A stretch of DNA of 64,000 nt from Ostreococcus lucimarinus (Eukaryota), in assembly GCA_000092065.1 (NCBI GenBank), contig CP000593.1, one strand, 5' to 3'. The stretch's first letter is position 1; every line of letters begins with the position of its first letter. The notes under the pieces were generated by a model that was given only the letters and a program-made list of their open reading frames with translations, made no database searches and was not told where the DNA came from. Positions 3,692 through 47,585 of this stretch are shown piece by piece. A program made the translations under genes and the position numbers.

Positions 3692-5581
3692 TTACGGGAG
3701 CGTGTACTTGCCAGGCTTGTCGAAGACGTACTCGGCCGTTTCGTTTTTCTTCACGACGAATCCCGCGAGCGCGTCGACTTCGGGCGCACCTTTGCCGGTC
3801 GGCTTCCACTGCCAACCCTTGTTCGTCACTTTCAAACCATCGACGATGACTTCCGCGCCCTCGCACGCCTTGATGACGAGCGCACCATCCACTTCGACGT
3901 TTTTCAAATTGACGCCAGAGCCTTCGACGACGAGCGCGCTCTTCGCGCCCAACTTGACGGCGCCGACTTTCGACTTGAGTTCATCAAAAGATGTGGCGAC
4001 ATCCGGACCGAGCACAACACGTGGACCCATGGGAAGCTTCATACCGTTGAATTCAGCGTCGACGGCGGCGGCGGGGACGTCGGCACCGGCCAAACGCAAC
4101 AAGTTTGCGCACGATTCGTAAAACTCAAACTCGCCGCTCGTCGCCGTGTGCGTCGGGCCGTTAGATTTGAACTTGGCCAAACCGTCCGCCGGAGAGTTCT
4201 TCACCGGGCTGTAGCCAATCCAGTTCGCAAAGACGGTGAAACCAACCTTAGCCTTCGATCCGAGGCTCTTGGGATAGTCTTGCATCATGCACTCCAATCG
4301 CGTCGGCGATTTGAAAGCCGTCTTTGTCTCATCCTTGTACTTGGGATTGACGAATTCTTCGATCGCGCCGCCAGTCTTCTTGAGTTGTTTTGCGTACTCT
4401 GGAAGACTCACGATGAGCTGATTGATGTTACCCGGGAATGGGGAGAAGCCCGTGGCATCGTTGACGTCGCCTTCGGGATTCGTAGTGGCTCGCAAAAGCG
4501 GATCGAGCTGGTTGTATTCGACGTTGATGGTCATCTTGCGTCCATCCTCGTGAGTTAGCAACGAAATCGCACCGACCGCTTCCTTGGCTTTTCGCGGAAC
4601 GCACAAAGAATTGAACTCAAGATTCATCGTCTTCGACACCCCGAGCGCACCAGGGATGACGCGGAACACGAGCGAGTTCGTGTCTTGAAAGAAGACGACC
4701 CACTTCTTGCCTTGGCTCATCCACTTTGATAACAACCCGCTCGTGTGCAGGAGAGAGTGCACGTCACCGTGGCCGTGCGGCTTGAGCGCGAGCTTGTAAG
4801 GATCGTCGTCTTTCACCGCCAAACGTGCATCGTTATCCATCAAGCACGGCACCTTTTCTTGCTTCATGAGCGTGATTTGATCGCGAGACGCGCCAAAGTA
4901 ATCGTTGCGTTCGAGCAAATCGAGCGTCAGCGCGTGCGTGTCCTCCGACGTCATGATCGCCAACGGAATCTTCGTGGACGATTTCGCCTTCGCGCCGCCA
5001 CCGCCGAAGCACCCGCACCCACCCGCGTTCGTCGCACCCTCCGCACCCTCCGCGCGTTTCTCCATCGCCAAGATATTCTTCACGTACAACTCCAAATAGC
5101 ACGCGTTCGTCGCCCGCTCCACCGGCAGCGCGACCTTGATCCCCGAGTACCCCAATCGCTCTCCCAACCCCCCCGCGACGAGCACGAAGCACGTCTCCGC
5201 CGTCTCCCGCATCCCAATCTTCTCCAGAATCTCGTGCGCCGCCGATCCGTACTCCACCGTCTTCCCCGTGGGCACGCTCGGCGTCCATCCCTCGAACGGA
5301 TTCTTCCCCTCCTTCGACGCCCTCAGCAGCTCGCGCGCGTTCGACACGTACTTCGCCACCCCCCCCGGGTACCCCCGATCCGCCCGTCGCACTTCCTCGA
5401 CGAACGCGCGCTTCCTCTCGTCGTCCACGCCCGGCGCCGGCCAATCCGCGATCAGATGCGCTTGTCCCAGCGCGATCGTTTCGCGCAGCGTCCGCGCGTC
5501 GTCCGTCGTCAGCGCGCCGCGCGCGACGTGCGCGTCGACGACGGCCGTCGCGCTCGCGCGCGCGTCGTCCATCGCGGCCAT
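3692..5581 (-). CDS. USP: UDP-sugar pyrophosphorylase
   Basis: FVLVAGGLGERLGYSGIKVALP nucleotide-binding motif and length about 630 aa match plant USP. ATG verified (complement of 5579-5581). The ORF-track start at 5719 is upstream in the same frame and less likely. Confidence 0.8.
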   Translation of the reverse strand: MAAMDDARASATAVVDAHVARGALTTDDARTLRETIALGQAHLIADWPAPGVDDERKRAFVEEVRRADRGYPGGVAKYVSNARELLRASKEGKNPFEGWTPSVPTGKTVEYGSAAHEILEKIGMRETAETCFVLVAGGLGERLGYSGIKVALPVERATNACYLELYVKNILAMEKRAEGAEGATNAGGCGCFGGGGAKAKSSTKIPLAIMTSEDTHALTLDLLERNDYFGASRDQITLMKQEKVPCLMDNDARLAVKDDDPYKLALKPHGHGDVHSLLHTSGLLSKWMSQGKKWVVFFQDTNSLVFRVIPGALGVSKTMNLEFNSLCVPRKAKEAVGAISLLTHEDGRKMTINVEYNQLDPLLRATTNPEGDVNDATGFSPFPGNINQLIVSLPEYAKQLKKTGGAIEEFVNPKYKDETKTAFKSPTRLECMMQDYPKSLGSKAKVGFTVFANWIGYSPVKNSPADGLAKFKSNGPTHTATSGEFEFYESCANLLRLAGADVPAAAVDAEFNGMKLPMGPRVVLGPDVATSFDELKSKVGAVKLGAKSALVVEGSGVNLKNVEVDGALVIKACEGAEVIVDGLKVTNKGWQWKPTGKGAPEVDALAGFVVKKNETAEYVFDKPGKYTLP

Positions 5582-5634
5582 CGCGCGCGTCGTCGTCCGT
5601 CGTCGCGCGGCGTCGGCGCGCGCGCGCGCGTTCA

Positions 5635-5691
5635 TTTCCGACACGTATGGGTAAACAGTCACAAGATTTCCGACACGTATGGGTAAACAGT
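5635..5691 (+). promoter_or_regulatory. Tandem duplicated 25-mer TTTCCGACACGTATGGGTAAACAGT (2 copies, period 32) holding the recurring CGTATGGGTAAACAGTG element
   Basis: Identical 25-mers at 5635-5659 and 5667-5691 between the divergent USP (ATG 5581, minus) and primase (ATG 5944, plus) genes. The same 17-mer recurs at 34991-35007 and reverse-complemented at 45624-45640. Confidence 0.4.
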
Positions 5692-5943
5692 GCGAAGACA
5701 CACACGGGAGGATTTTCAAACGCCGCGACAGGTGGCGCGAAAAATTTAAAATTCCAGCGACGACCGCGCGACTGCGCGACGCGCGGCGCGACGCGACGCG
5801 ACGCGGGAGACGCGCGCGCGCGGCGAAGCTTTCGAGGCGTCGGACGCGCGAACGAACGCGAGAACAAACGCGAGACGACGCGAGAGACGACGCGGGAGAC
5901 GCGCCGACGCGGTGACGATCGACGCGGTGACGATCGACAAAGG

Positions 5944-7248
5944 ATGGCGACGGTCGAACCGGAGACGAAGCGATTGAAGACGGAGGATGGGGAGAAGGAA
6001 AACGTCGCGCTCAACACGGGGAACGTGGGGAAGGCGCGGGTGAAGAGCTTGATGTATAGGTATTATAAACAATTTTACCCGGCGGATCTGTTGTTCAAGT
6101 GGTTGGCGCACGGAAACGACGAACGACACGCGAGGGCGGAGAAGACGTACCCGAGCCGGCGGGAGTTTTGTTTCGTGCTGGATAAGGAACAAGAAGAGGG
6201 CGGGGGAGAGATTTTTGCGCGGTATCAGAGTTTCGTGGACGCGAAGGATTTTAAGACAAACGTGGAGCGGAAAAAGCCGGCGCGCATCGAATTCGGGCCG
6301 ATTTGTAACCGCAGACCGTCCGACAGGCACACGGTGGAGTTAAAACCGGAGGAGCGGGAGTTGGTTTTTGATATCGATATGACGGATTACGACGACGTGC
6401 GGACGTGCTGCAAGGAGGCTGGGATCTGTGGAAAGTGCTGGCCGTTGATGACGGTGGCGCTCAAGGTGCTCGACGTCGGCTTGCGCGAGGATTTCGGTTT
6501 CAAGCACTTGTTGTGGGTCTATTCCGGTCGTCGCGGTATTCACTGCTGGATCAGCGATGAGCGCGCGAGAAAGTTGAGCGACGAAGCTCGCTCTGCGGTT
6601 GCCGAGTATTTCGCCGTCGTCAAGGGCGAGGGTCAGGGGCGCCGCGTGTTGTCGTCGACGCCGATGCACCCTTCGGTGAAGCGCGCGTACGACGGCGTCT
6701 TGAAACAATATTGGATCGAGTCGTACTTGCCCACGCAGCGAATTCTCGAGGACAAAACCAAGCTCGAGCAACTCCTCAATCTGATTCCCGACGAAAACAT
6801 TAGAGAGGATCTCGCGTCGGAGTTTGCGACGAGTTCGCTCAACTCGGTCGACCGCTGGGGTGTCATCGAGCGCCGCGTGCAAGACTCTTTGAAGAAAAAT
6901 AATTACAAGCTTACCGGTGCGCTCGAAAAGATAATCCTCTGGCACATCTACCCTCGAGTCGATATCGAGGTGTCTAGACACATGAATCACTTGTTGAAGG
7001 GTCCGTTTTGCGTTCACCCAAAAACTGGGCGTGTGTGCGTGCCCATGGATCCCGCCACCGCGGATTCCTTCAATCCGGAACTCGTGCCCACCGTCGTCGA
7101 TCTGGATTCCGGTGCGCAAACCTTAGACGGGGCGATCAAAACTTTTAACGACACGTTCTGGAACGCGTGCGCGAGGGAAAACATCGAGCGGCTCACCGCA
7201 AAGACGCGTCAAGCCAAGGCGGAGCAACAGTCTGGGATGGAATTCTAA
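5944..7248 (+). CDS. PRI1: DNA primase small (catalytic) subunit
   Basis: LVFDIDMTDYDDVRTCC...GICGKCW primase small-subunit signature, about 435 aa. ATG verified at 5944 (MATVEPETKRLK). The ORF-track start at 5647 lies inside the promoter motif and is R/D-rich filler. Confidence 0.85.
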   Translation: MATVEPETKRLKTEDGEKENVALNTGNVGKARVKSLMYRYYKQFYPADLLFKWLAHGNDERHARAEKTYPSRREFCFVLDKEQEEGGGEIFARYQSFVDAKDFKTNVERKKPARIEFGPICNRRPSDRHTVELKPEERELVFDIDMTDYDDVRTCCKEAGICGKCWPLMTVALKVLDVGLREDFGFKHLLWVYSGRRGIHCWISDERARKLSDEARSAVAEYFAVVKGEGQGRRVLSSTPMHPSVKRAYDGVLKQYWIESYLPTQRILEDKTKLEQLLNLIPDENIREDLASEFATSSLNSVDRWGVIERRVQDSLKKNNYKLTGALEKIILWHIYPRVDIEVSRHMNHLLKGPFCVHPKTGRVCVPMDPATADSFNPELVPTVVDLDSGAQTLDGAIKTFNDTFWNACARENIERLTAKTRQAKAEQQSGMEF

Positions 7249-32668: not shown

Positions 32669-34702
32669 ATGTACCGCGCGTCACGCATCCCCGCGCGCGC
32701 GCGTTGGCGCATCGCGTCGCTCGCGTCGCCGCGGCGCGCGCCGTCGCCGCGTCACCGCCGCTCGCTCGTCGTCGTTCGCGCCGCGCGCGCGACGCCCGCG
32801 ACGTTCGATTACACCGCCCTCGTCGCGAGCGTGCGGGAGATAAACGCGCTGTCGACGCCGGTGAAGATCGACGCGTGCGCGCAGGTGGACGCGCACTCGA
32901 TGACGCTGGACGCGCGCGCGGCGGATGGACGGCGGAGCGTGCGAGTGAGTTGGCACCCGGTGACCGCGCACGTCGCGATGAGCGCGCGCGGGGCCAAGGT
33001 GGAGAAGGGGATGAATCTTAGTTTTGGCGAGAGCGCGAACGCGCTGCTCAAGGGGAAGGTGCTGCTGGATGCGCGCGTGGGGACGGCGTGGGAACGCGCG
33101 TGTCGGTTGCGATTCGGCGATAGGCCGGGAGGTGAGGCAGAGTACGAGCTGTTGTGTGAGGTCATGGGGCGGTACAGCAACGCGTTCTTGCTTGATAGTA
33201 AAAATAATGATGAAGTTTTAGCGTGTGGGTATCAGGTTGGGGAGAAACAGACGAGTGTGCGGCGATTGGCGATCGGGTACGCGTACGAGCCGCCGCCCTC
33301 GGCGCCCGGGATCGATCCCACGACCGGGGTTGAAGGGGGCGTGGACGGATGGACCGCGGTGTTGCGCGACGTCGCACGCGGTCGCAGTGGTGATATGGGC
33401 GAAGCGCGTTTGGATGAGTGCATGGTGCGCGCGTTTCGAGGGGTGTCACCGGCTTTGGCCAAGGCGTTGATTCGCGGCGCGGGCGTCGCCGATGGCGAGC
33501 GCGTCGAAACCGCGAGTGCGAGCGATTGGGTCGCCGTGTACGATGAGTTCATGCGATGGATTGCGAGCGTTTCAAGTGATGCCGACAGTGCGGGTACGCT
33601 CGCAAACGCCACGTGGTGCGAAGAGTTCGGGCAGTTGTTATTGCACCCGTCGTCCGCGGGCGTCGTCTTGCCGCCCGCCGCCGACGATTTGAGCGTTGCC
33701 GGCGGGCCGATCGGCGCTCTTTTCGGCGCTGTGTACGGCGAAGCGGGCGAAACCGACGTGTTCGAGCGCGAACGCTCGCGCATTTTACAAGCCGTGCGCG
33801 CGCGTCTGAAAAAGTTGGCGAGCAAAGACGTTGGGTTCCGCAAGCAATTAGAGGCGGCGAGCGGGCACGAAGAAATTCAACTGCTCGCCGACGCGTTGAT
33901 GGCGTACAGTTACAACTATAAGCCTGGTTCGAGCGAGCTTGAGGGTCAAGACTTCACCACGGGCGAGACAGTGATGTTTAAAGTAGATCCCGAGAAAGGT
34001 CCTGTGGGCACCGCCGAGGCGCTGTACAAAAAGACGAGAAAGCTGCGTCGCACCGCCGACGCCGTCGAGCCGCTCATCGAACAAAATGCGAGCGAGATTG
34101 AGTATTTAGAGGGCGTCGAATTTAGTATTCTCGAAGTCAGCGAGTTCAAATCGCGCGACGATTTATTGTTCATCGAGGAAATTGGCGCCGAACTCGTGGA
34201 CGGTGGATTCTTAAAGCCCACGGGCAAGGGCGCCGACGCGAAGACGCGCGCGATGGCGGCGGCGAAGAAGGGCGGCGGCGCGAAGCCGAAAACCGGTAAG
34301 CAAGCGCGTAAGCAAGAGATGATGAACGCCATTCGCATCTATACCGCGCCGAGTGGAAAGGAGGTGTACTGCGGAAGAAATAGCCGCGGAAACGAAGCGG
34401 TTTCGCTTTTCTTCGGACAAGACCAAGACGTGTGGTTTCACGTTCGCGGCGCCCCGGGCGCGCACGTCATCCTTCGCCAACAACCAGGCGAAACCGCCTC
34501 AGACGACGACATCCAATTCGCCGCCAACGTCGCGAGCTTTCATTCGAAAGTGAGAACGGGCGGCAAAGTCAACGTTTCGTACACGTCTCCTAAGTACGTG
34601 AAAAAGCCCAAGGGCGCCAGGCTCGGCATGGTCACCATCGACCGCGAAGACGTCATCGTCGGACGACCGGACGACGTCGCGGACGTCTGCGACGGGCGAT
34701 GA
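32669..34702 (+). CDS. NFACT-family protein (RqcH/FbpA/Tae2-like ribosome quality-control factor), probably plastid-targeted
   Basis: NFACT-N region FDYTALVASVREINALS..., coiled-coil middle, C-terminal NFACT-R/DUF814 IYTAPSGKEVYCGRNSRGNEAVSLFFGQDQDVWFHVRGAPGAHVIL. ORF-track start 32522 is GTG. First ATG verified at 32669, followed by a transit-peptide-like stretch. Confidence 0.7.
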   Translation: MYRASRIPARARWRIASLASPRRAPSPRHRRSLVVVRAARATPATFDYTALVASVREINALSTPVKIDACAQVDAHSMTLDARAADGRRSVRVSWHPVTAHVAMSARGAKVEKGMNLSFGESANALLKGKVLLDARVGTAWERACRLRFGDRPGGEAEYELLCEVMGRYSNAFLLDSKNNDEVLACGYQVGEKQTSVRRLAIGYAYEPPPSAPGIDPTTGVEGGVDGWTAVLRDVARGRSGDMGEARLDECMVRAFRGVSPALAKALIRGAGVADGERVETASASDWVAVYDEFMRWIASVSSDADSAGTLANATWCEEFGQLLLHPSSAGVVLPPAADDLSVAGGPIGALFGAVYGEAGETDVFERERSRILQAVRARLKKLASKDVGFRKQLEAASGHEEIQLLADALMAYSYNYKPGSSELEGQDFTTGETVMFKVDPEKGPVGTAEALYKKTRKLRRTADAVEPLIEQNASEIEYLEGVEFSILEVSEFKSRDDLLFIEEIGAELVDGGFLKPTGKGADAKTRAMAAAKKGGGAKPKTGKQARKQEMMNAIRIYTAPSGKEVYCGRNSRGNEAVSLFFGQDQDVWFHVRGAPGAHVILRQQPGETASDDDIQFAANVASFHSKVRTGGKVNVSYTSPKYVKKPKGARLGMVTIDREDVIVGRPDDVADVCDGR

Positions 34703-34990
34703 ATCGCGCGCATCGCTCAAACTTGTAACATTCGCCCCCTCGTCCCGAGGACCCATAAAGTCATAAAGCGTCCATCGCGTCGTCGCGCGCACCGTCGCGT
34801 CTCGCCGCGCCCTTCGCCGCGCGCCCCGCGGGCTTCGCGCGTCGCGCGCGACGCCGACGCCGACGCCTCGCCTCCGACCGCGCGCGCGTCGACCGCGTCG
34901 ACCGCGGCGACCGCGCGTTTCGTCGCGCGGTCGCGTGACGTCACGCGCGAACCGTCGACGTCGACGATTCGTGTCGCGCGACCGACCGCT

Positions 34991-35007
34991 CGTATGCGTA
35001 AACAGTG
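34991..35007 (+). promoter_or_regulatory. CGTATGCGTAAACAGTG promoter element, sense orientation, 79 nt upstream of the ELIP-like ATG
   Basis: 16/17 match to the tandem element at 5643-5659 and 5675-5691 and to the inverted copy at 45624-45640. Confidence 0.4.
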
Positions 35008-35085: not shown

Positions 35086-35742
35086 ATGTTCGCCGTCACG
35101 ACTCGCCCCCAACTCGCCGCCCGCGCCGTCGTCAAGACGCAGCGCGCGCACCGCCGCGCCTCCGTCGCGGTCCGCGCCGAAAACGACGTCTCCAAGGCGG
35201 TCGAAGAGGCGAACTCCGAGTGGAAGGATGCCGACGCGGCGTCCAAGCAGCCGACGATGCGCGTCGACGCGATCGACCCGGCCGACGGCTCCATCGCCGA
35301 AGCGGCGCCGCTCGGGAACGATAACTCCATGCTCGACTCCGTCATGCTCGCGTTCAAGGACTCGCGCGCGGTGGAGACGATCAACGGTCGCGCGGCGATG
35401 ATTGGGTGGACGGCGGCGCTCTACGTGGAGCTGACGTCGAACACGAGCTTCATGCACCAATTGTTCAACGAACGCACGTTCACGCTCGCGGACGGCATCA
35501 CGCGCACGTCCACGTACCCGGCGGCCGGGTTCTTCCTCGTGCCGGCCTGCGTGATCTTGACCTTGGCGTCCTCTTTGGCGCCGGCGCTCAAGAAGTCGTC
35601 GCCGAACGGCTTGGACGAGGCGCCCGAGGCGTTCGGGCCGTTCCGCGCGGAGGCGGAGATGACGAACGGTCGCGGTGCGATGATCGGTCTCGTCGCGTTG
35701 CCGATCGTCGAAAAGATCATGGGCGGCTCCGCGCTGTTCTAA
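35086..35742 (+). CDS. ELIP / LHC-like chlorophyll a/b-binding family protein (three-helix, chloroplast-targeted)
   Basis: Two LHC motifs ETINGRAAMIGW and EMTNGRGAMIGL separated by a hydrophobic helix. Transit-peptide-like N-terminus MFAVTTRPQLAARAVVKTQRAHRRASVAVRA. ATG verified at 35086. Confidence 0.7.
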   Translation: MFAVTTRPQLAARAVVKTQRAHRRASVAVRAENDVSKAVEEANSEWKDADAASKQPTMRVDAIDPADGSIAEAAPLGNDNSMLDSVMLAFKDSRAVETINGRAAMIGWTAALYVELTSNTSFMHQLFNERTFTLADGITRTSTYPAAGFFLVPACVILTLASSLAPALKKSSPNGLDEAPEAFGPFRAEAEMTNGRGAMIGLVALPIVEKIMGGSALF

Positions 35743-44550: not shown

Positions 44551-44580
44551 TACGCTACGCTACGCTACGCTACGCTACGC
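44551..44580. repeat. Pentanucleotide microsatellite (TACGC)6
   Basis: Six perfect tandem TACGC units. It overlaps the stop codon (TAG, sense strand) and the start of the 3'UTR of the mitochondrial-carrier gene and lies upstream of the asparaginase gene. Confidence 0.9.
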
Positions 44581-45567
44581 GACGGGATCGTCGTTTAATA
44601 CGCCTAAAACGCCCTCGTACGCGGCGAACGTGATGGCCGAACTCGGTAACACGCGAACGACGTTGGGGGCGAAGCCCTTGTAGAAGCCGCGAACGCCCTC
44701 GCGAGCGAAGGTGCGCGAGACGGCTTCGCCGAAGCGCGCGTACGTCGGGGCGTCCGCGGGTCTACCGACGTCCGAGCGCTGTTGAATGCGCGCGCGCACG
44801 ACTTGAATTGGATAAGTCGCGGTCACGGCGATGAATTTCGACGCCAAGCCCAGGGCGCCAGCCTCGACCGGGGCGACGTCCGCCGCGCCCCCTCGCGCGC
44901 GTCTCGCTCTGCCGCTCGCCGCGATTTCCTTCAACCACTCGTACGCCGTCAACTGTATCGAACCGTGCGAGACGAGCCATATCGACGGCACGAGTCCCTT
45001 GTATAACCCTCTCAACCCTTCCTTTCGCGCGATCGTCGCCAACGCGTCGACGAATCCCGCGTATCGCTTTTCGCCGCTCTTCGCCGCTTCGCTCGCCGCG
45101 TCCCCTAATCCTCCTCCTCTCTGCAACTGCAACCGCGTCTTCACCACCCAAATCGGGTTCGTCAGCACCGTCGTCACCACCCCCGCCTCCGTGGCCGCCA
45201 TCATGTTCGCGCCCGCCGGCAGCGCCCCGTTTCGCTCTCGTCCGAGCGCGTCCGCGTACCGCGCCCGCGCGCCGTCGTACCACGCGAAATACGCCCCCCA
45301 GCTCACCGCGCTCCCGACGATCGCCGGCGCGGCGCCCGCGTAGATCCCGCGCGCGCCTTCCTCGGCGACGATCCGTCGCGCGCCTCGCCACGCGCCCGCG
45401 TACCGCGCGCGTCGCGCGTCCGGGTCGTCCTGCACCTGCAGCCGCGTCTTCACGACGTCGAGCGGGTGCAGCGCGAGCGTGCTCGACGCGCCGCCCGCGA
45501 CGCCGGCGACGAACGCGCGCCAATCGCTCGCGCGCGCGTCGCGCGCGTCGGCGCGCGCGCGCGCCAT
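44575..45567 (-). CDS. Mitochondrial carrier family protein (folate/FAD/NAD-type transporter-like)
   Basis: Three MCF repeats with PLDVVKTRLQ, PIWVVKTRLQ, YPIQVVRARIQ signatures. ATG verified at 45567. Confidence 0.75.
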   Translation of the reverse strand: MARARADARDARASDWRAFVAGVAGGASSTLALHPLDVVKTRLQVQDDPDARRARYAGAWRGARRIVAEEGARGIYAGAAPAIVGSAVSWGAYFAWYDGARARYADALGRERNGALPAGANMMAATEAGVVTTVLTNPIWVVKTRLQLQRGGGLGDAASEAAKSGEKRYAGFVDALATIARKEGLRGLYKGLVPSIWLVSHGSIQLTAYEWLKEIAASGRARRARGGAADVAPVEAGALGLASKFIAVTATYPIQVVRARIQQRSDVGRPADAPTYARFGEAVSRTFAREGVRGFYKGFAPNVVRVLPSSAITFAAYEGVLGVLNDDPVA

Positions 45568-45623
45568 GCTGCGGCGTCCGCCGCGCGGGCCGTCGAGGCT
45601 GGGCGGCGTTCTGCTGATACTCA

Positions 45624-45640
45624 CACTGTTTACCCATACG
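45624..45640 (-). promoter_or_regulatory. CGTATGGGTAAACAGTG promoter element (reads in sense on the minus strand), 57 nt upstream of the carrier ATG
   Basis: Perfect reverse-complement copy of the 5643-5659 element. Followed, in the same relative position as copy 2 at 5675-5691, by AAGACACA. Confidence 0.4.
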
Positions 45641-46181
45641 AAGACACATACTCTTGAGTCATGAACCGTCGACGAAACGCACGCGTCGACGCATCCTCGC
45701 GAAGACCCCAGGACGGCGGCGGCGCCATTCTTCGACGGTCAAAGGTGCGCCCGCGCGCGGCGAACGACGCGCGCGCGACGGCGATCGACGGACGCGGCGG
45801 TGGGAAATATTCGCGCGCGTCGCGGCGCGCGCGCGAGGGCGCGCGACGACGCGAGGGCGAGGCGATGCGGGCGCCGCGCGATCGATCGCGGACGACGATC
45901 GATCGCGGACGGCGCGCGGACGACGATCGGACGCGGTGACGCCGCGATGCGACGCGCGAGGCGTCGGTCGCGGATGGAAACGATCGGGAGGAATACGCGC
46001 GCGATGGATCGGGCGGCGCGGGACGCGCGCGAGGGTCGCGAGCGAGGGGGGGGGGCGAGGTTGACGATCGCGATCCGATGGCGGCGCGATGGCGGGAGGT
46101 TTGGACGCGGGACGAGGCGAGACGAGAGGAAGGGGGACTGACGATGCGCGCGTGGCTCGAAACAGTTGAAATAAACGCACA

Positions 46182-47585
46182 ATGTCTGAAGGCAAGGAAC
46201 ATCTTTCCATCGTGATCTGCGGTCACGTCGATTCCGGTAAGTCGACGACGACCGGTCGCTTGTTATTCGAGCTCGGGGGTATCCCGGAGCGCGAACTCGA
46301 AAAGCTTCGCGCCGAAGCCGATGCGCTCGGTAAGTCTTCTTTCGCGTTCGCGTTCTACATGGATCGCCAAAAGGAAGAGCGTGAGCGTGGTGTGACGATT
46401 TCTTGCACGACCAAGGAATTCTTCACGGACAAGTGGCACTACACCATCATCGACGCCCCGGGTCACCGCGATTTCATCAAGAACATGATTTCCGGCGCGG
46501 CGCAAGCCGATGTGGCGCTTCTCATGGTGCCGGCGGACGGTAACTTCACGGTCGCCATCCAAAAGGGTAACCACAAGGCTGGTGAAGTCCAAGGCCAAAC
46601 GCGCCAGCACGCGCGTCTTCTCAACTTGCTCGGCGTCAAGCAGCTCATTTGCGGCATCAACAAGATGGATTGCGACATGGCTGGCTACAAGCAAGAGCGT
46701 TACGAAGAAATTCGCAACGAAATGAAGAACATGTTGATCAAGGTCGGCTGGAAGAAGGATTACGTCGAGAAGAGCGTCCCGGTCCTCCCGATCTCTGGCT
46801 GGAACGGCGACAACTTGTTGTCCAAGTCCGCGAAGATGCCGTGGTGGAACGGCGTCGACGTCGAAGACTACATGGGCGGCGGCAAGAAGTTCCACATCGA
46901 CTGCCTCCTCAACGTCCTCAACGACATGGTCGACAAGCCGGACCGCAACACGGAAGCCGCCATGCGCCTTCCGATTTCCGGTGTCTACAAGATCAAGGGT
47001 GTCGGTGATGTCCTCGCCGGTCGCGTCGAGCAAGGTCTCGTCAAGCCGGGTGAAGACGTCGTCTTCCTCCCGACCCACACCTCCTCCAACCCGTGCGGTG
47101 GTAAGGTGTTCACCGTCGAAATGCACCACAAGCGCGTCGAAGCCGCCGCGCCGGGTGACAACGTCGGTATGAACATCAAGGGTCTCGACAAGCTCAACAT
47201 GCCGCGCACCGGTGACGTGATGATCTACAAGAAGGACACCTCCCTCGCCCCGTGCAAGGAGTTCACCGCGCAAATCCAAACCTTGGACATTCCGGGTGAA
47301 CTCAAGGCGGGCTACAGCCCCATCGGTTTCGTCCGATGCGGCCGCTCCGCGTGCAAGTTGACCGCGCTCAACTTCAAGGTTGGCAAGGAAACCGGCGGTA
47401 AGAAGCTCGAGTCCCCGATGTCGTTGAAGTCCAACGAAGTCGCCGAGTGCGTCTTCGAGCCGGTCCACCCGCTCGTCGTCGACTCCTTCAAGAAGTGCGA
47501 AGGTCTTTCCCGCATCGCTTTCTTGGACGGTAACACCGCCGTCATGTTGGGTAAGATCACCAAGGTTGAGTACAAGGCCATCTAA
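46182..47585 (+). CDS. EFL: Elongation factor-like GTPase EFL (replaces EF-1alpha)
   Basis: GHVDSGKST, DAPGH, NKMD GTPase motifs with EFL-specific insertions (e.g. MPWWNGVDVEDYMGGGKKFHIDCLL). 467 aa uninterrupted. ATG verified at 46182. Confidence 0.9.
   Translation: MSEGKEHLSIVICGHVDSGKSTTTGRLLFELGGIPERELEKLRAEADALGKSSFAFAFYMDRQKEERERGVTISCTTKEFFTDKWHYTIIDAPGHRDFIKNMISGAAQADVALLMVPADGNFTVAIQKGNHKAGEVQGQTRQHARLLNLLGVKQLICGINKMDCDMAGYKQERYEEIRNEMKNMLIKVGWKKDYVEKSVPVLPISGWNGDNLLSKSAKMPWWNGVDVEDYMGGGKKFHIDCLLNVLNDMVDKPDRNTEAAMRLPISGVYKIKGVGDVLAGRVEQGLVKPGEDVVFLPTHTSSNPCGGKVFTVEMHHKRVEAAAPGDNVGMNIKGLDKLNMPRTGDVMIYKKDTSLAPCKEFTAQIQTLDIPGELKAGYSPIGFVRCGRSACKLTALNFKVGKETGGKKLESPMSLKSNEVAECVFEPVHPLVVDSFKKCEGLSRIAFLDGNTAVMLGKITKVEYKAI

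What the first reader, a model, noticed from the sequence alone, without database searches (positions are those of the whole stretch)
5635..5691. Recurrent 17-nt element CGTATG(G/C)GTAAACAGTG in three promoter regions (four copies, one as an exact 25-mer tandem duplication)
The 25-mer TTTCCGACACGTATGGGTAAACAGT occurs twice, 32 bp apart, between the divergent USP and DNA-primase genes. The core recurs as CGTATGCGTAAACAGTG at 34991-35007, 79 nt upstream of the ELIP-like ATG in sense orientation. It recurs again as its exact reverse complement at 45624-45640, 57 nt upstream of the mitochondrial-carrier ATG, again in sense orientation for that gene. The tandem copy and the carrier copy are both followed by AAGACACA. 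I found no other copies of GTAAACAG or its complement outside coding sequence in the 64 kb. Position and orientation are conserved (-57 to -79 from the ATG in 2 of 3 loci), and only the divergent USP/primase promoter has it duplicated. That pattern suggests a core-promoter or TSS-proximal cis element, or a short conserved 5'UTR/uORF start (ATG GGT AAA CAG), rather than chance. The three loci are otherwise unrelated genes.
Basis: seen in the sequence. Interest (0 to 1): 0.65.

Follow-up and report, generated by a model that had tools for sequence, protein, structure and literature searches.

The report
Conserved 16-base promoter-region DNA word
A 16-base DNA word, repeated four times next to gene starts in this Ostreococcus lucimarinus window, also occurs at dozens of sites in related marine green algae, some inside mobile introns. 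It is most likely a docking site for an unidentified DNA-binding protein.

Summary
CGTATG(G/C)GTAAACAGT occurs four times in the 64 kb, against 0 expected, and there are no degenerate copies.

The window is Ostreococcus lucimarinus CCE9901. The copies lie in three gene-start regions:
- two copies upstream of UDP-sugar pyrophosphorylase, divergent from primase
- one copy upstream of an ELIP-like gene
- one copy between a folate carrier and EF-1alpha

A metagenome scan shows that the word YGTATGSGTAAACAGT is widespread in Mamiellales-like contigs. They fall into three contexts:
- intergenic sites, many within 300 nt of a start codon, in both orientations, sometimes as tandem or inverted pairs
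- the conserved core of introner-like repeat introns
- inside an element bounded by terminal inverted repeats (TIRs)

The word is absent from most orthologous promoters in other Ostreococcus species. At the USP locus, only the ACCCATAC core persists in a distant relative.

I found no RNA structure, no consistent uORF and no neighbouring snRNA gene.

Best reading, at moderate confidence: a DNA-level binding site for a sequence-specific protein that is partly spread by mobile elements. The factor is unknown. Resemblance of the core to Rap1 sites and snRNA upstream elements is only a lead.

The parts
5634..5665 (+). Tandem unit 1 (32 nt), containing core copy 1 at 5644-5660 (CGTATGGGTAAACAGTC). 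This is the USP-proximal unit.
   Evidence: In another strain (L049) this copy carries 3 substitutions inside the core.
5666..5697 (+). Tandem unit 2 (32 nt), containing core copy 2 at 5676-5692 (CGTATGGGTAAACAGTG). This is the better conserved copy.
   Evidence: It is identical in strain L049 and differs by one base (GGGCAAACAG) in the 94%-identity relative L140.
5695..5702 (+). AAGACACA box, 2 nt beyond the CAGTG end of copy 2.
   Evidence: It occurs only twice in the window, and both occurrences abut a core copy. L140 has AAGACTGTCAGC at the same place.
34991..35007 (+). Core copy 3, the C variant (CGTATGCGTAAACAGTG). It lies 78 nt before the ELIP-like ATG and 289 nt after the NFACT stop codon.
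   Evidence: It is invariant in 6 metagenome contigs of the same species, but so is nearly all of the flanking sequence. It is absent from the syntenic ortholog L007.
45624..45640 (-). Core copy 4 (CGTATGGGTAAACAGTG on the minus strand). It lies 56 nt before the folate-carrier ATG. On the plus strand it reads CACTGTTTACCCATACG and points toward EF-1alpha.
45641..45676 (+). AAGACACA box (45641-45648) plus the block CTTGAGTCATGAACCGTCGACGAAAC, which follows copy 4 on the EF-1alpha strand. The block is shared with metagenome locus L107. The box resembles the CCCATACA-AAGACTGACAC junction of the introner copies.

Best explanation
YGTATGSGTAAACAGT is a genuine short DNA element found across the Mamiellales. 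It acts at the DNA level as the binding site of a sequence-specific protein in gene 5' intergenic regions.

In O. lucimarinus it marks three regions: the USP/primase region (as a tandem pair), the ELIP-like region, and the folate-carrier/EF-1alpha region.

Four properties are shown:
- It works in either orientation.
- It is often present as a tandem or inverted pair.
- It is not tied to one functional class of genes.
- It appears and decays quickly at individual loci.

New copies of a word this long are unlikely to arise by point mutation. I infer that they are seeded by copy-and-paste events. In relatives the same word rides inside introner-like repeat introns and a TIR-bounded element.

Shown here: non-randomness, distribution, contexts, pairing, lack of RNA structure, and turnover between species. 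Inferred: protein binding and a general promoter or chromatin role. The factor is not identified. A Myb-type protein is suggested only by the ACCCATAC core.
For: Non-randomness:
- 4 perfect copies against 0 expected, and no copies with 1-3 mismatches.
- 60 of the 121 sites in the truncated metagenome scan lie on high-GC, Mamiellales-like contigs. About 57 of those sites have distinct flanks.
- Base -1 is a pyrimidine in 53 of those 60 sites. It is uniform in the low-GC hits and in the viral-contig hits, which serve as the chance control.
- In 654 kb of such contigs there are 43 further sites with 1-2 mismatches, against 2 in reversed sequence.

Context:
- Among the 47 non-intron sites with crude gene calls, 24 lie within 300 nt of a called start codon, in both orientations.
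- Neighbouring genes are functionally diverse.
- A second full or near copy lies within 170 nt at the window tandem pair, L068, L060, L116, L140, L124 and L113.
- No flanking position other than -1 carries information.

Selection:
- The 17-mer is identical in contigs whose 100-nt flanks are only 60-70% alike: L048/L058/L066, L028/L092, and the window versus L107.
- At the USP/primase locus, the distal copy persists in a 94%-identity relative. The 9-mer TACCCATAC persists at the same relative position in a 70%-identity species.
- A near copy (GGTATGGGCAAACAGTA) lies in the divergent promoter of two ELIP/LHC-like genes in Micromonas.

Not an RNA element:
- Fold z-scores run from -1.4 to +1.8.
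- No Rfam family was found in the window or in 54 motif-bearing loci.
Against: - The word is absent from the orthologous ELIP promoter (L007). It is absent upstream of the carrier orthologs L136, L138 and O. tauri L137. Only L137 demonstrably keeps EF-1alpha as the neighbour.
- The USP-proximal copy is already decaying in another strain.
- The all-or-none pattern in the window (4 perfect copies, 0 degenerate) is unusual for an ordinary degenerate transcription-factor site. It fits copies by descent.
- Part of the family is clearly carried by mobile or repeated elements.
- The cross-species evidence for selection comes from loci that were found because they contain the exact word, so it is ascertainment-biased.
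- There is no binding, chromatin or transcript-end data.
- Gene calls on metagenome contigs are crude.
Confidence: 0.5

Rival explanations
1. The window copies are inert relics or fragments of a mobile element family (the introner or TIR element that carries the word in relatives). They survive in intergenic DNA only because insertions elsewhere are lethal in a compact genome, and they have no host function.
For: - The word is the conserved core of repeat introns inserted in different host genes. Splice models join long open frames.
- It lies inside a ~236-nt element with 46-nt TIRs.
- The variant GTATGGGCAAACAGT is very dense in introner-rich contigs.
- Copy 4 shares another ~9 nt (AAGACACA, compared with AAGACTGACAC) with the introner copies.
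- The window shows all-or-none copy quality.
- The word is absent from most orthologous promoters, and one copy is decaying at strain level.
Against: - The window copies share only 17-32 nt, with no TIRs, target-site duplications or splice sites.
- The exact word is kept across genera and in contigs whose flanks have diverged to near-random identity.
- The core persists at the USP locus in a 70%-identity species.
- Homotypic tandem and inverted pairs recur at independent loci.
- A fixed host-like gene (Harbinger-type DDE, L050/L279) carries the word once in its upstream region, with no inverted partner.
Confidence: 0.27
2. It is the Mamiellales version of the snRNA-type upstream sequence element (USE/PSE) bound by SNAPc, read as CACTGTTTACCCATACG. 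It would drive small-RNA-type or SNAPc-dependent transcription toward USP and EF-1alpha.
For: - The core ACCCATAC resembles the USE consensus reported for snRNA promoters of M. pusilla (ACCCAYAW), O. lucimarinus (CCCRTAA) and Auxenochlorella (ACCCATAA) (PMC8287931).
- A 16-17-nt strict word is the size of a SNAPc site (my own knowledge).
- In this orientation the word points to USP and to EF-1alpha, at a distance that would give short 5' UTRs.
Against: - None of ~57 motif sites (window plus 54 loci, ~430 kb) is near any Rfam snRNA or snoRNA. Direct probes for U6, U2, U4 and U5 find nothing.
- There is no TATA-like partner at a fixed distance.
- About 30% of sites have ACGCATAC, which breaks the CCC core.
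- Most promoter sites have the opposite orientation relative to the nearest gene.
- Real Mamiellales snRNA promoters could not be fetched for comparison.
Confidence: 0.08
3. It is an RNA-level signal in the 5' UTR: a short uORF starting at the internal ATG (ATG GGT AAA CAG), or a structured leader element.
For: - The word contains an ATG.
- At the ELIP copy the frame closes after 4 codons (ATG CGT AAA CAG TGA).
- TGA follows the word at several metagenome sites.
- Crude gene calls show more sites in sense than in antisense orientation.
Against: - Frame lengths are inconsistent: 4 codons at one copy and more than 100 at another.
- Both orientations occur, and tandem and inverted pairs exist.
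- In introns the word is on the antisense strand.
- The folds are no more stable than shuffles.
- Nothing beyond position -1 is conserved.
Confidence: 0.04
4. It is a sequence-specific replication origin or other chromosome-maintenance site (an ORC-type site) placed in intergenic DNA.
For: - Density in the window is 3 loci per 64 kb, about 1 per 21 kb. That is the order of origin spacing in small yeast genomes (my own knowledge).
- It is intergenic, orientation-independent, AT-rich within GC-rich DNA, and a long strict word.
Against: - No data bear on replication.
- The word also occurs many times per 10 kb inside introns of some relatives, far denser than origins.
- It is absent from orthologous intergenic regions of sister species.
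Confidence: 0.04

Closest known systems
General regulatory factor sites of compact yeast genomes (Rap1 UASrpg ACACCCATACAT; Reb1 TTACCCG)
   Same: - A long, strict word in promoter-proximal DNA of many unrelated genes.
- It works in either orientation and is often paired.
- It is present at the EF-1alpha promoter.
- The core ACCCATAC(A) equals 8-9 nt of the Rap1 consensus quoted in PMC522869.
- In yeast, Rap1-site promoters are nucleosome-depleted (PMC522869).
   Different: - This is a different kingdom, and no Rap1-type DNA-binding protein is known here.
- The other half of the word (CACTGTTT) has no counterpart in the Rap1 site.
- The G variant (ACGCATAC) breaks the CCC core.
- Binding and nucleosome depletion are untested.
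Upstream sequence element of snRNA type-3 promoters in green algae (Fajkus et al. 2021, PMC8287931)
   Same: Core similarity: ACCCATAC matches ACCCAYAW (M. pusilla) at 7 of 8 positions and CCCRTAA (O. lucimarinus) at 6 of 7. The length also suits a SNAPc site.
   Different: - No snRNA gene lies next to any of ~57 sites.
- There is no fixed-distance TATA.
- Both orientations occur.
- The word is found at protein-coding genes and inside introns.
Micromonas introner elements (IE-C/ABC-IE and relatives; PMC3879977, PMC4815162, PMC4540971)
   Same: In related metagenome contigs the word sits in short, highly similar repeat introns (74-190 nt). It lies on the sense strand as ACTGTTTACSCATAC, a few nt 5' of the CTGAC branch point, and the introns are in different host genes. 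The published ABC-IE are short introns (64 +/- 7 nt) with a single highly conserved motif.
   Different: - The window copies are intergenic, share only 17-32 nt and have no splice signals.
- Introner elements were reported as absent from Ostreococcus.
- The published IE logos are figures that I could not read, so identity with a named IE family is unverified.
MITE-like non-autonomous DNA transposons
   Same: One family (L048/L058/L066) carries the word inside a ~236-nt unit bounded by 46-nt inverted repeats and arrays of CTGGTACG. L107 has 52-nt inverted repeats beside the word.
   Different: No TIRs or target-site duplications surround the window copies. Most intergenic sites (37 of 39 tested) have no flanking inverted repeat above background.

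Membership tests
snRNA-type USE / SNAPc site | Sequence matches the lineage's USE consensus | tested here: inconclusive
   ACCCATAC matches ACCCAYAW at 7 of 8 positions and CCCRTAA at 6 of 7 (PMC8287931). About 30% of sites have ACGCATAC instead.
snRNA-type USE / SNAPc site | Lies about 60-70 nt upstream of an snRNA, snoRNA, SRP, MRP or telomerase RNA gene | tested here: not met
   No Rfam family at gathering score was found in the window or in 54 motif-bearing loci. Probes for U6, U2, U4 and U5 found nothing.
snRNA-type USE / SNAPc site | A TATA box, or its absence, at a fixed distance that sets polymerase choice | tested here: not met
   The position-specific matrix of 43 intergenic sites shows no informative column other than -1.
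snRNA-type USE / SNAPc site | Bound by SNAPc | not testable with these tools
   This needs a binding assay.
Micromonas introner elements | Sits inside a spliceosomal intron on the sense strand of a host gene | tested here: not met
   The window copies are intergenic and lack donor, branch and acceptor signals. The feature is met for related loci L092, L028, L117, L057, L089 and others.
Micromonas introner elements | High identity to other copies over the whole element | tested here: not met
   The window copies share 17 nt, 32 nt within the tandem pair, and ~26 nt between copy 4 and the introner copies.
Micromonas introner elements | Match to a published IE consensus | not testable with these tools
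   The consensus is published only as figures or supplements that are not held.
MITE / TIR transposon | Terminal inverted repeats and target-site duplication around the copy | tested here: not met
   Only low-complexity CG-rich inverted repeats occur around the window copies. TIRs are present around the L048 family and L107 only.
General regulatory factor site (Rap1/Reb1-like) | Promoter-proximal, orientation-independent, and at many unrelated genes | tested here: met
   The gene calls on metagenome contigs are crude.
General regulatory factor site (Rap1/Reb1-like) | Bound by an abundant Myb-type factor and creates a nucleosome-free region | not testable with these tools
   This needs DAP-seq or ChIP, and MNase or ATAC data.
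Conserved uORF | An ATG-initiated short frame of conserved length or peptide, in sense orientation within the 5' UTR | tested here: not met
   The frames run 4 codons (copy 3) against more than 100 (copies 1, 2 and 4). Both orientations occur.

The most novel reading that the evidence does not exclude
The 16-mer is the recognition site of a conserved, highly specific Mamiellales DNA-binding factor. Candidates are a Myb-type general regulatory factor, or the DNA-binding partner of a domesticated Harbinger transposase. On this reading the factor organises a few percent of promoters. Introner elements and a TIR element carry and spread the site, so intron-generating mobile elements and promoter architecture in these minimal genomes share one protein-DNA module.
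Probability: 0.15. Interest if true: 0.75.

Novelty: new member of a known kind. Interest (0 to 1): 0.5.

Why it matters
Ostreococcus and Micromonas are among the smallest free-living eukaryotes, and almost nothing is known about their promoter grammar.

A 16-base word that recurs at many promoters across genera would be a ready handle for several things:
- finding a major DNA-binding factor
- building synthetic promoters
- defining nucleosome-free regions

The same word sits at the heart of introner-like repeat introns. That gives a concrete sequence link between promoter elements and intron-generating mobile DNA, and so bears on how introners arise and spread.

If instead it is only transposon debris, it still marks a previously unnoticed trace of such elements in Ostreococcus, where introners were reported absent.

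Tried and rejected
- **Literature search for the word.** Searching for the word or its halves gave only unrelated primer hits. The Ostreococcus, Micromonas and introner papers held as text give no sequence for their motifs. The Piganeau 2009 footprinting paper is not held.
- **Fetching Mamiellales snRNA promoters.** I wanted these to test the USE idea. A U6 scan of viral contigs found nothing. A U6 scan of GTDB contigs found 13 contaminating eukaryotic contigs, none Mamiellales-like. No supplement of PMC8287931 is held.
- **Population variation at the ELIP locus.** It is too low to be informative: 1 SNP and 1 indel in the intergenic region. L158 proved to be the same species with homopolymer errors.
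- **Transposase terminal-site idea.** This arose from the Harbinger-type DDE gene 88 nt downstream of the word in L050. I rejected it because a longer contig (L279) shows a single copy, ordinary flanking genes and no inverted partner.
- **Functional theme among neighbouring genes.** None was found.
- **RNA structure.** None was found.
- **Viral contigs.** Hits look like pure chance matches and were used as the negative control.

Full report
**1. What is in the window**

The 17-mer CGTATG(G/C)GTAAACAGT(G/C) is present at 5644-5660(+), 5676-5692(+), 34991-35007(+) and 45624-45640(-).
- Allowing 2 mismatches to the 17-mer, or 3 to the 15-mer core, finds only these four. Shuffles give 0.00 and 0.82 expected matches respectively.
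- GTAAACAG occurs nowhere else in the 64 kb.
- The first two copies belong to a 32-nt unit repeated head to tail (5634-5665 and 5666-5697, 29/32 identical).

The copies are therefore real, far beyond chance, and all-or-none: four perfect copies and no degenerate ones.

**2. Organism and gene context**

Exact protein look-ups place the window in Ostreococcus lucimarinus CCE9901. Pfam confirms the neighbouring genes:

| Gene | Coordinates |
|---|---|
| UDP-sugar pyrophosphorylase (USP) | 3692-5635(-) |
| DNA primase small subunit | 5944-7248(+) |
| NFACT | 32669-34702(+) |
| ELIP-like chlorophyll a/b-binding protein | 35086-35742(+) |
| Mitochondrial folate-type carrier | 44575-45567(-) |
| EF-1alpha | 46182-47585(+) |

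- The primase ATG is at 5944. The long frame that starts at the motif's own ATG (5647) is just a stop-free GC-rich leader.
- The tandem pair abuts the first in-frame ATG of USP and is antisense to it. That N-terminal stretch differs between strains, so the real USP start is probably 51 nt further in.
- An E2F-like GCGCGAAA with an AT-rich stretch (5735-5756) lies nearer primase.
- Copy 4 lies in a divergent region. EF-1alpha appears to have a 5'-UTR intron at 45745-46165 (AG|GTGCGC ... ACTGAC ... AAACAG|). This is inferred from sequence only. On that model its promoter would be around 45600-45740, and the word read as CACTGTTTACCCATACG points toward it.
- Only copy 3 sits in a one-way promoter, between the NFACT 3' end and the ELIP 5' end.

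**3. The word is widespread in Mamiellales-like contigs**

- Sixty sites lie on contigs of 54-69% GC with Mamiellales-like composition. About 57 of them have distinct flanks.
- In those 60 sites the base before the word is C or T in 53 cases.
- In the 61 low-GC hits, and in 120 hits from viral contigs, that base is uniform. Those hits are therefore chance matches and serve as the control.
- In 654 kb of Mamiellales-like sequence there are 43 further sites with 1-2 mismatches, against 2 in reversed sequence. The commonest variant is GTATGGGCAAACAGT.
- A position matrix of 43 non-intron sites shows information only at -1. There is mild AT-richness within +/-20 nt and no partner at a fixed distance.

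The element is a free-standing 16-mer, YGTATGSGTAAACAGT.

**4. Three contexts**

*(a) Intergenic sites.*
- Crude GC3-based gene calls gave context for 47 non-intron sites.
- 24 of them lie within 300 nt of a start codon: 16 with the gene downstream of the GTATG... strand only, 5 with the gene on the other side only, and 3 in divergent pairs.
- 13 have no start codon within 300 nt, and 10 overlap a called ORF.
- In unambiguous tandem gene pairs the split is about 6:3.
- Neighbouring genes are functionally diverse. They include a MYB-related factor, MinE, dymeclin, a hydrolase, a kinase, amidophosphoribosyltransferase, a PPR protein, Glu-tRNA synthetase, a JmjC protein, carriers and a Harbinger-type DDE protein.
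- Second copies close by recur:

| Locus | Arrangement | Spacing |
|---|---|---|
| Window (copies 1-2) | tandem | 32 nt |
| L068 | tandem | 28 nt |
| L060 | tandem | 44 nt |
| L116 | inverted | 53 nt |
| L140 | abutting palindrome | 3-nt spacer |

*(b) Introns.*
- Twelve sites have the word on the host gene's sense strand as ACTGTTTACSCATAC, 1-26 nt 5' of a CTGAC branch point.
- Six of these (L032, L038, L057, L075, L103, L117) are copies of one repeat element inserted in different genes. Their similarity starts at the 5' splice site, and they carry a second related box, GATTGCCCATAC.
- Removing GT..AG introns of 74-188 nt joins long open frames. In L092, for example, 858 and 185 codons are joined.
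- This matches what is published for Micromonas introner elements: short repeat introns with one highly conserved motif and an NCTGAC branch point (PMC4815162, PMC3879977). I could not read the published logos, so the family name is unverified.

*(c) A TIR-bounded element.*
- In L048/L058/L066 the word lies inside a ~236-nt unit with 46-nt inverted ends and CTGGTACG arrays.
- L107 has 52-nt inverted repeats beside it.
- The other 37 of 39 intergenic sites tested, including the window copies, have no flanking inverted repeat above background.

**5. Evolution at the three window loci**

- **ELIP.** The syntenic ortholog from a 63%-identity species (L007) keeps an upstream TGACGTCA...GACGTCGACGA block but not the word.
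- **Carrier.** The regions upstream of the orthologs L136, L137 and L138 lack the word, allowing up to 4 mismatches. Only O. tauri L137 demonstrably keeps EF-1alpha as the upstream neighbour.
- **USP/primase.**
  - Another strain (L049) has both units, but its USP-proximal copy carries 3 substitutions inside the core.
  - A 94%-identity relative (L140) has one copy (GGGCAAACAG variant) plus an inverted half-copy, forming an 11-nt palindrome with a 3-nt spacer.
  - A 70%-identity species (L144) keeps only TACCCATAC at the same relative position. An exact 9-mer is expected about 0.003 times in that intergenic region.
  - An 80%-identity species (L141) keeps only ACCCAT.
- **Micromonas.** A paralogous ELIP/LHC-like divergent promoter carries GGTATGGGCAAACAGTA.
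- **Diverged flanks.** The exact 17-mer is retained in contigs whose flanks are 60-70% alike, which is near the random level for this composition. Those contigs were found through the word, so this is biased evidence.

Overall, individual copies turn over quickly while the word itself is preserved across genera.

**6. Extended flank**

AAGACACA occurs only twice in the window. Both occurrences touch a core copy, but at opposite ends of the core. L140 has AAGACTGTCAGC at the USP site, and the introner copies have CCCATACA-AAGACTGACAC. A second short box therefore accompanies the core with flexible polarity. I have no explanation for this.

**7. What it is not**

- **Not an RNA structure.** Fold z-scores run from -1.4 to +1.8.
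- **Not a known RNA gene or its neighbour.** No Rfam hit was found in the window or in 54 motif-bearing loci.
- **Not a consistent uORF.** Frame lengths range from 4 to over 100 codons, both orientations occur, and the word is antisense in introns.
- **Not a transposase terminal site of the Harbinger-type gene.** L279 shows a single upstream copy between ordinary genes.

**8. Most likely mechanism**

The properties point to recognition of double-stranded DNA by a sequence-specific protein in promoter-proximal DNA:
- a strict 16-bp word
- use in either orientation
- homotypic tandem or inverted pairs
- placement near the starts of unrelated genes
- mild AT-richness within GC-rich DNA
- no RNA signal

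This is the behaviour of general regulatory factor sites in other compact genomes. Because a word this long is unlikely to arise by point mutation, new copies are probably seeded by duplication or by the mobile elements that carry it. I give this reading about 0.5.

The main rival is that the Ostreococcus copies are inert debris of such elements (about 0.27).

The core ACCCATAC(A) matches 8-9 nt of the yeast Rap1 consensus ACACCCATACAT (PMC522869). It also resembles the USE consensus reported for Micromonas and Ostreococcus snRNA promoters (PMC8287931). Both suggest a Myb-type reader, but these are leads. The defining features of a USE (an adjacent snRNA gene and fixed TATA spacing) were tested and not met.

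**9. Novelty and verdict**

I found no description of this word in the held literature. It is best filed as a new member of a known kind: a short dispersed promoter-region cis-element.

Its unusual feature is the link to introner-like mobile introns. The claims of fixed position and orientation and the uORF idea are not supported.

Interest is moderate (0.5). It would rise if the binding factor or the introner link is demonstrated.

Noticed in passing
window 5735-5756: An E2F-like site, GCGCGAAA (TTTCGCGC on the other strand), is followed by AAATTTAAAATT. It lies between the motif pair and the primase gene. The block GAATTTTAAATTTTT(C)GCGC is kept in the USP/primase intergenic region of L140 and, more loosely, in L144. 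It is probably the S-phase control element of primase.
   Followed up: partly
window 45745-46165: Inferred 421-nt intron in the 5' UTR of EF-1alpha. The donor is caaag|GTGCGC, the branch point is ACTGAC at 46137-46142, and the acceptor is AAACAG| 16 nt before the ATG at 46182. O. tauri (L137) has an equivalent AGACTGAC...GCGCAG| just before its EF-1alpha ATG. No transcript evidence is available.
   Followed up: partly
window 34936-34967; L007 1955-1995: The palindromic bZIP-type site TGACGTCA and GACGTCGACGA, upstream of the ELIP-like gene, are conserved in the syntenic ortholog from a 63%-identity species. The 17-mer is not. This is a likely light or stress control element of the ELIP promoter.
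   Followed up: no
L032, L038, L057, L075, L103, L117 (metagenome loci): One repeat intron family is inserted in six different host genes. It begins at the 5' splice site with (GTRHGK..)YTTTCCCAATCACCACGTTC and carries two related boxes, GATTGCCCATAC and GACTGTTTACGCATAC. It ends with GACTGACACTTTCTTGT..AG. L098 and L129 carry 6-7 further near-copies of the word per ~10 kb.
   Followed up: partly
L048 570-805; L058; L066: A ~236-nt element with 46-nt terminal inverted repeats (AATCCGGTACCAGCG...), internal arrays of CTGGTACGAG, and a box GCCGAATGTCCG 10-20 nt from the word. It is present in three contigs of different GC content. The reverse complement of the same box (CGGACATTCGGC) also occurs upstream of the DDE gene in L279.
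   Followed up: partly
L050 854-2449(-); L279 4001-5596: A PIF/Harbinger-type DDE transposase gene (Pfam Plant_tran and DDE_Tnp_4) sits between ordinary host genes, with short spacers and no evident inverted ends. Its 90%-identity cluster includes a transcript from Ostreococcus sp. RCC789. It may be a domesticated transposase.
   Followed up: partly
window 35086-35742 and 44575-45567: The ELIP-like and carrier proteins each map to two sets of NCBI accessions in O. lucimarinus CCE9901 (XP_001420982 and XP_001422912; XP_001421128 and XP_001422826). This stretch therefore seems to be present twice in the reference assembly.
   Followed up: no
window 5584-5635: The first 17 codons of the long USP frame differ strongly between two otherwise ~99% identical strains (window versus L049), and also in L140. 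The annotated-looking ATG at 5635 is therefore probably not the real start. The real start is more likely the ATG at 5584.
   Followed up: partly
window 5905-5934: An exact 15-nt tandem duplication, CGACGCGGTGACGAT x2, lies just upstream of the primase ATG, inside a run of GACGCGAGA-type low-complexity repeats (5778-5909).
   Followed up: no
L107 (reverse strand, ~100-130 nt downstream of the word): A plant-type telo-box, AAACCCTAA, and an evening-element-like AGATATTTT follow the word and the shared CTTGAGTCATGAAC block. This fits an EF-1alpha or translation-gene promoter in a related species, but no coding sequence was reached on this 2.3-kb contig.
   Followed up: partly
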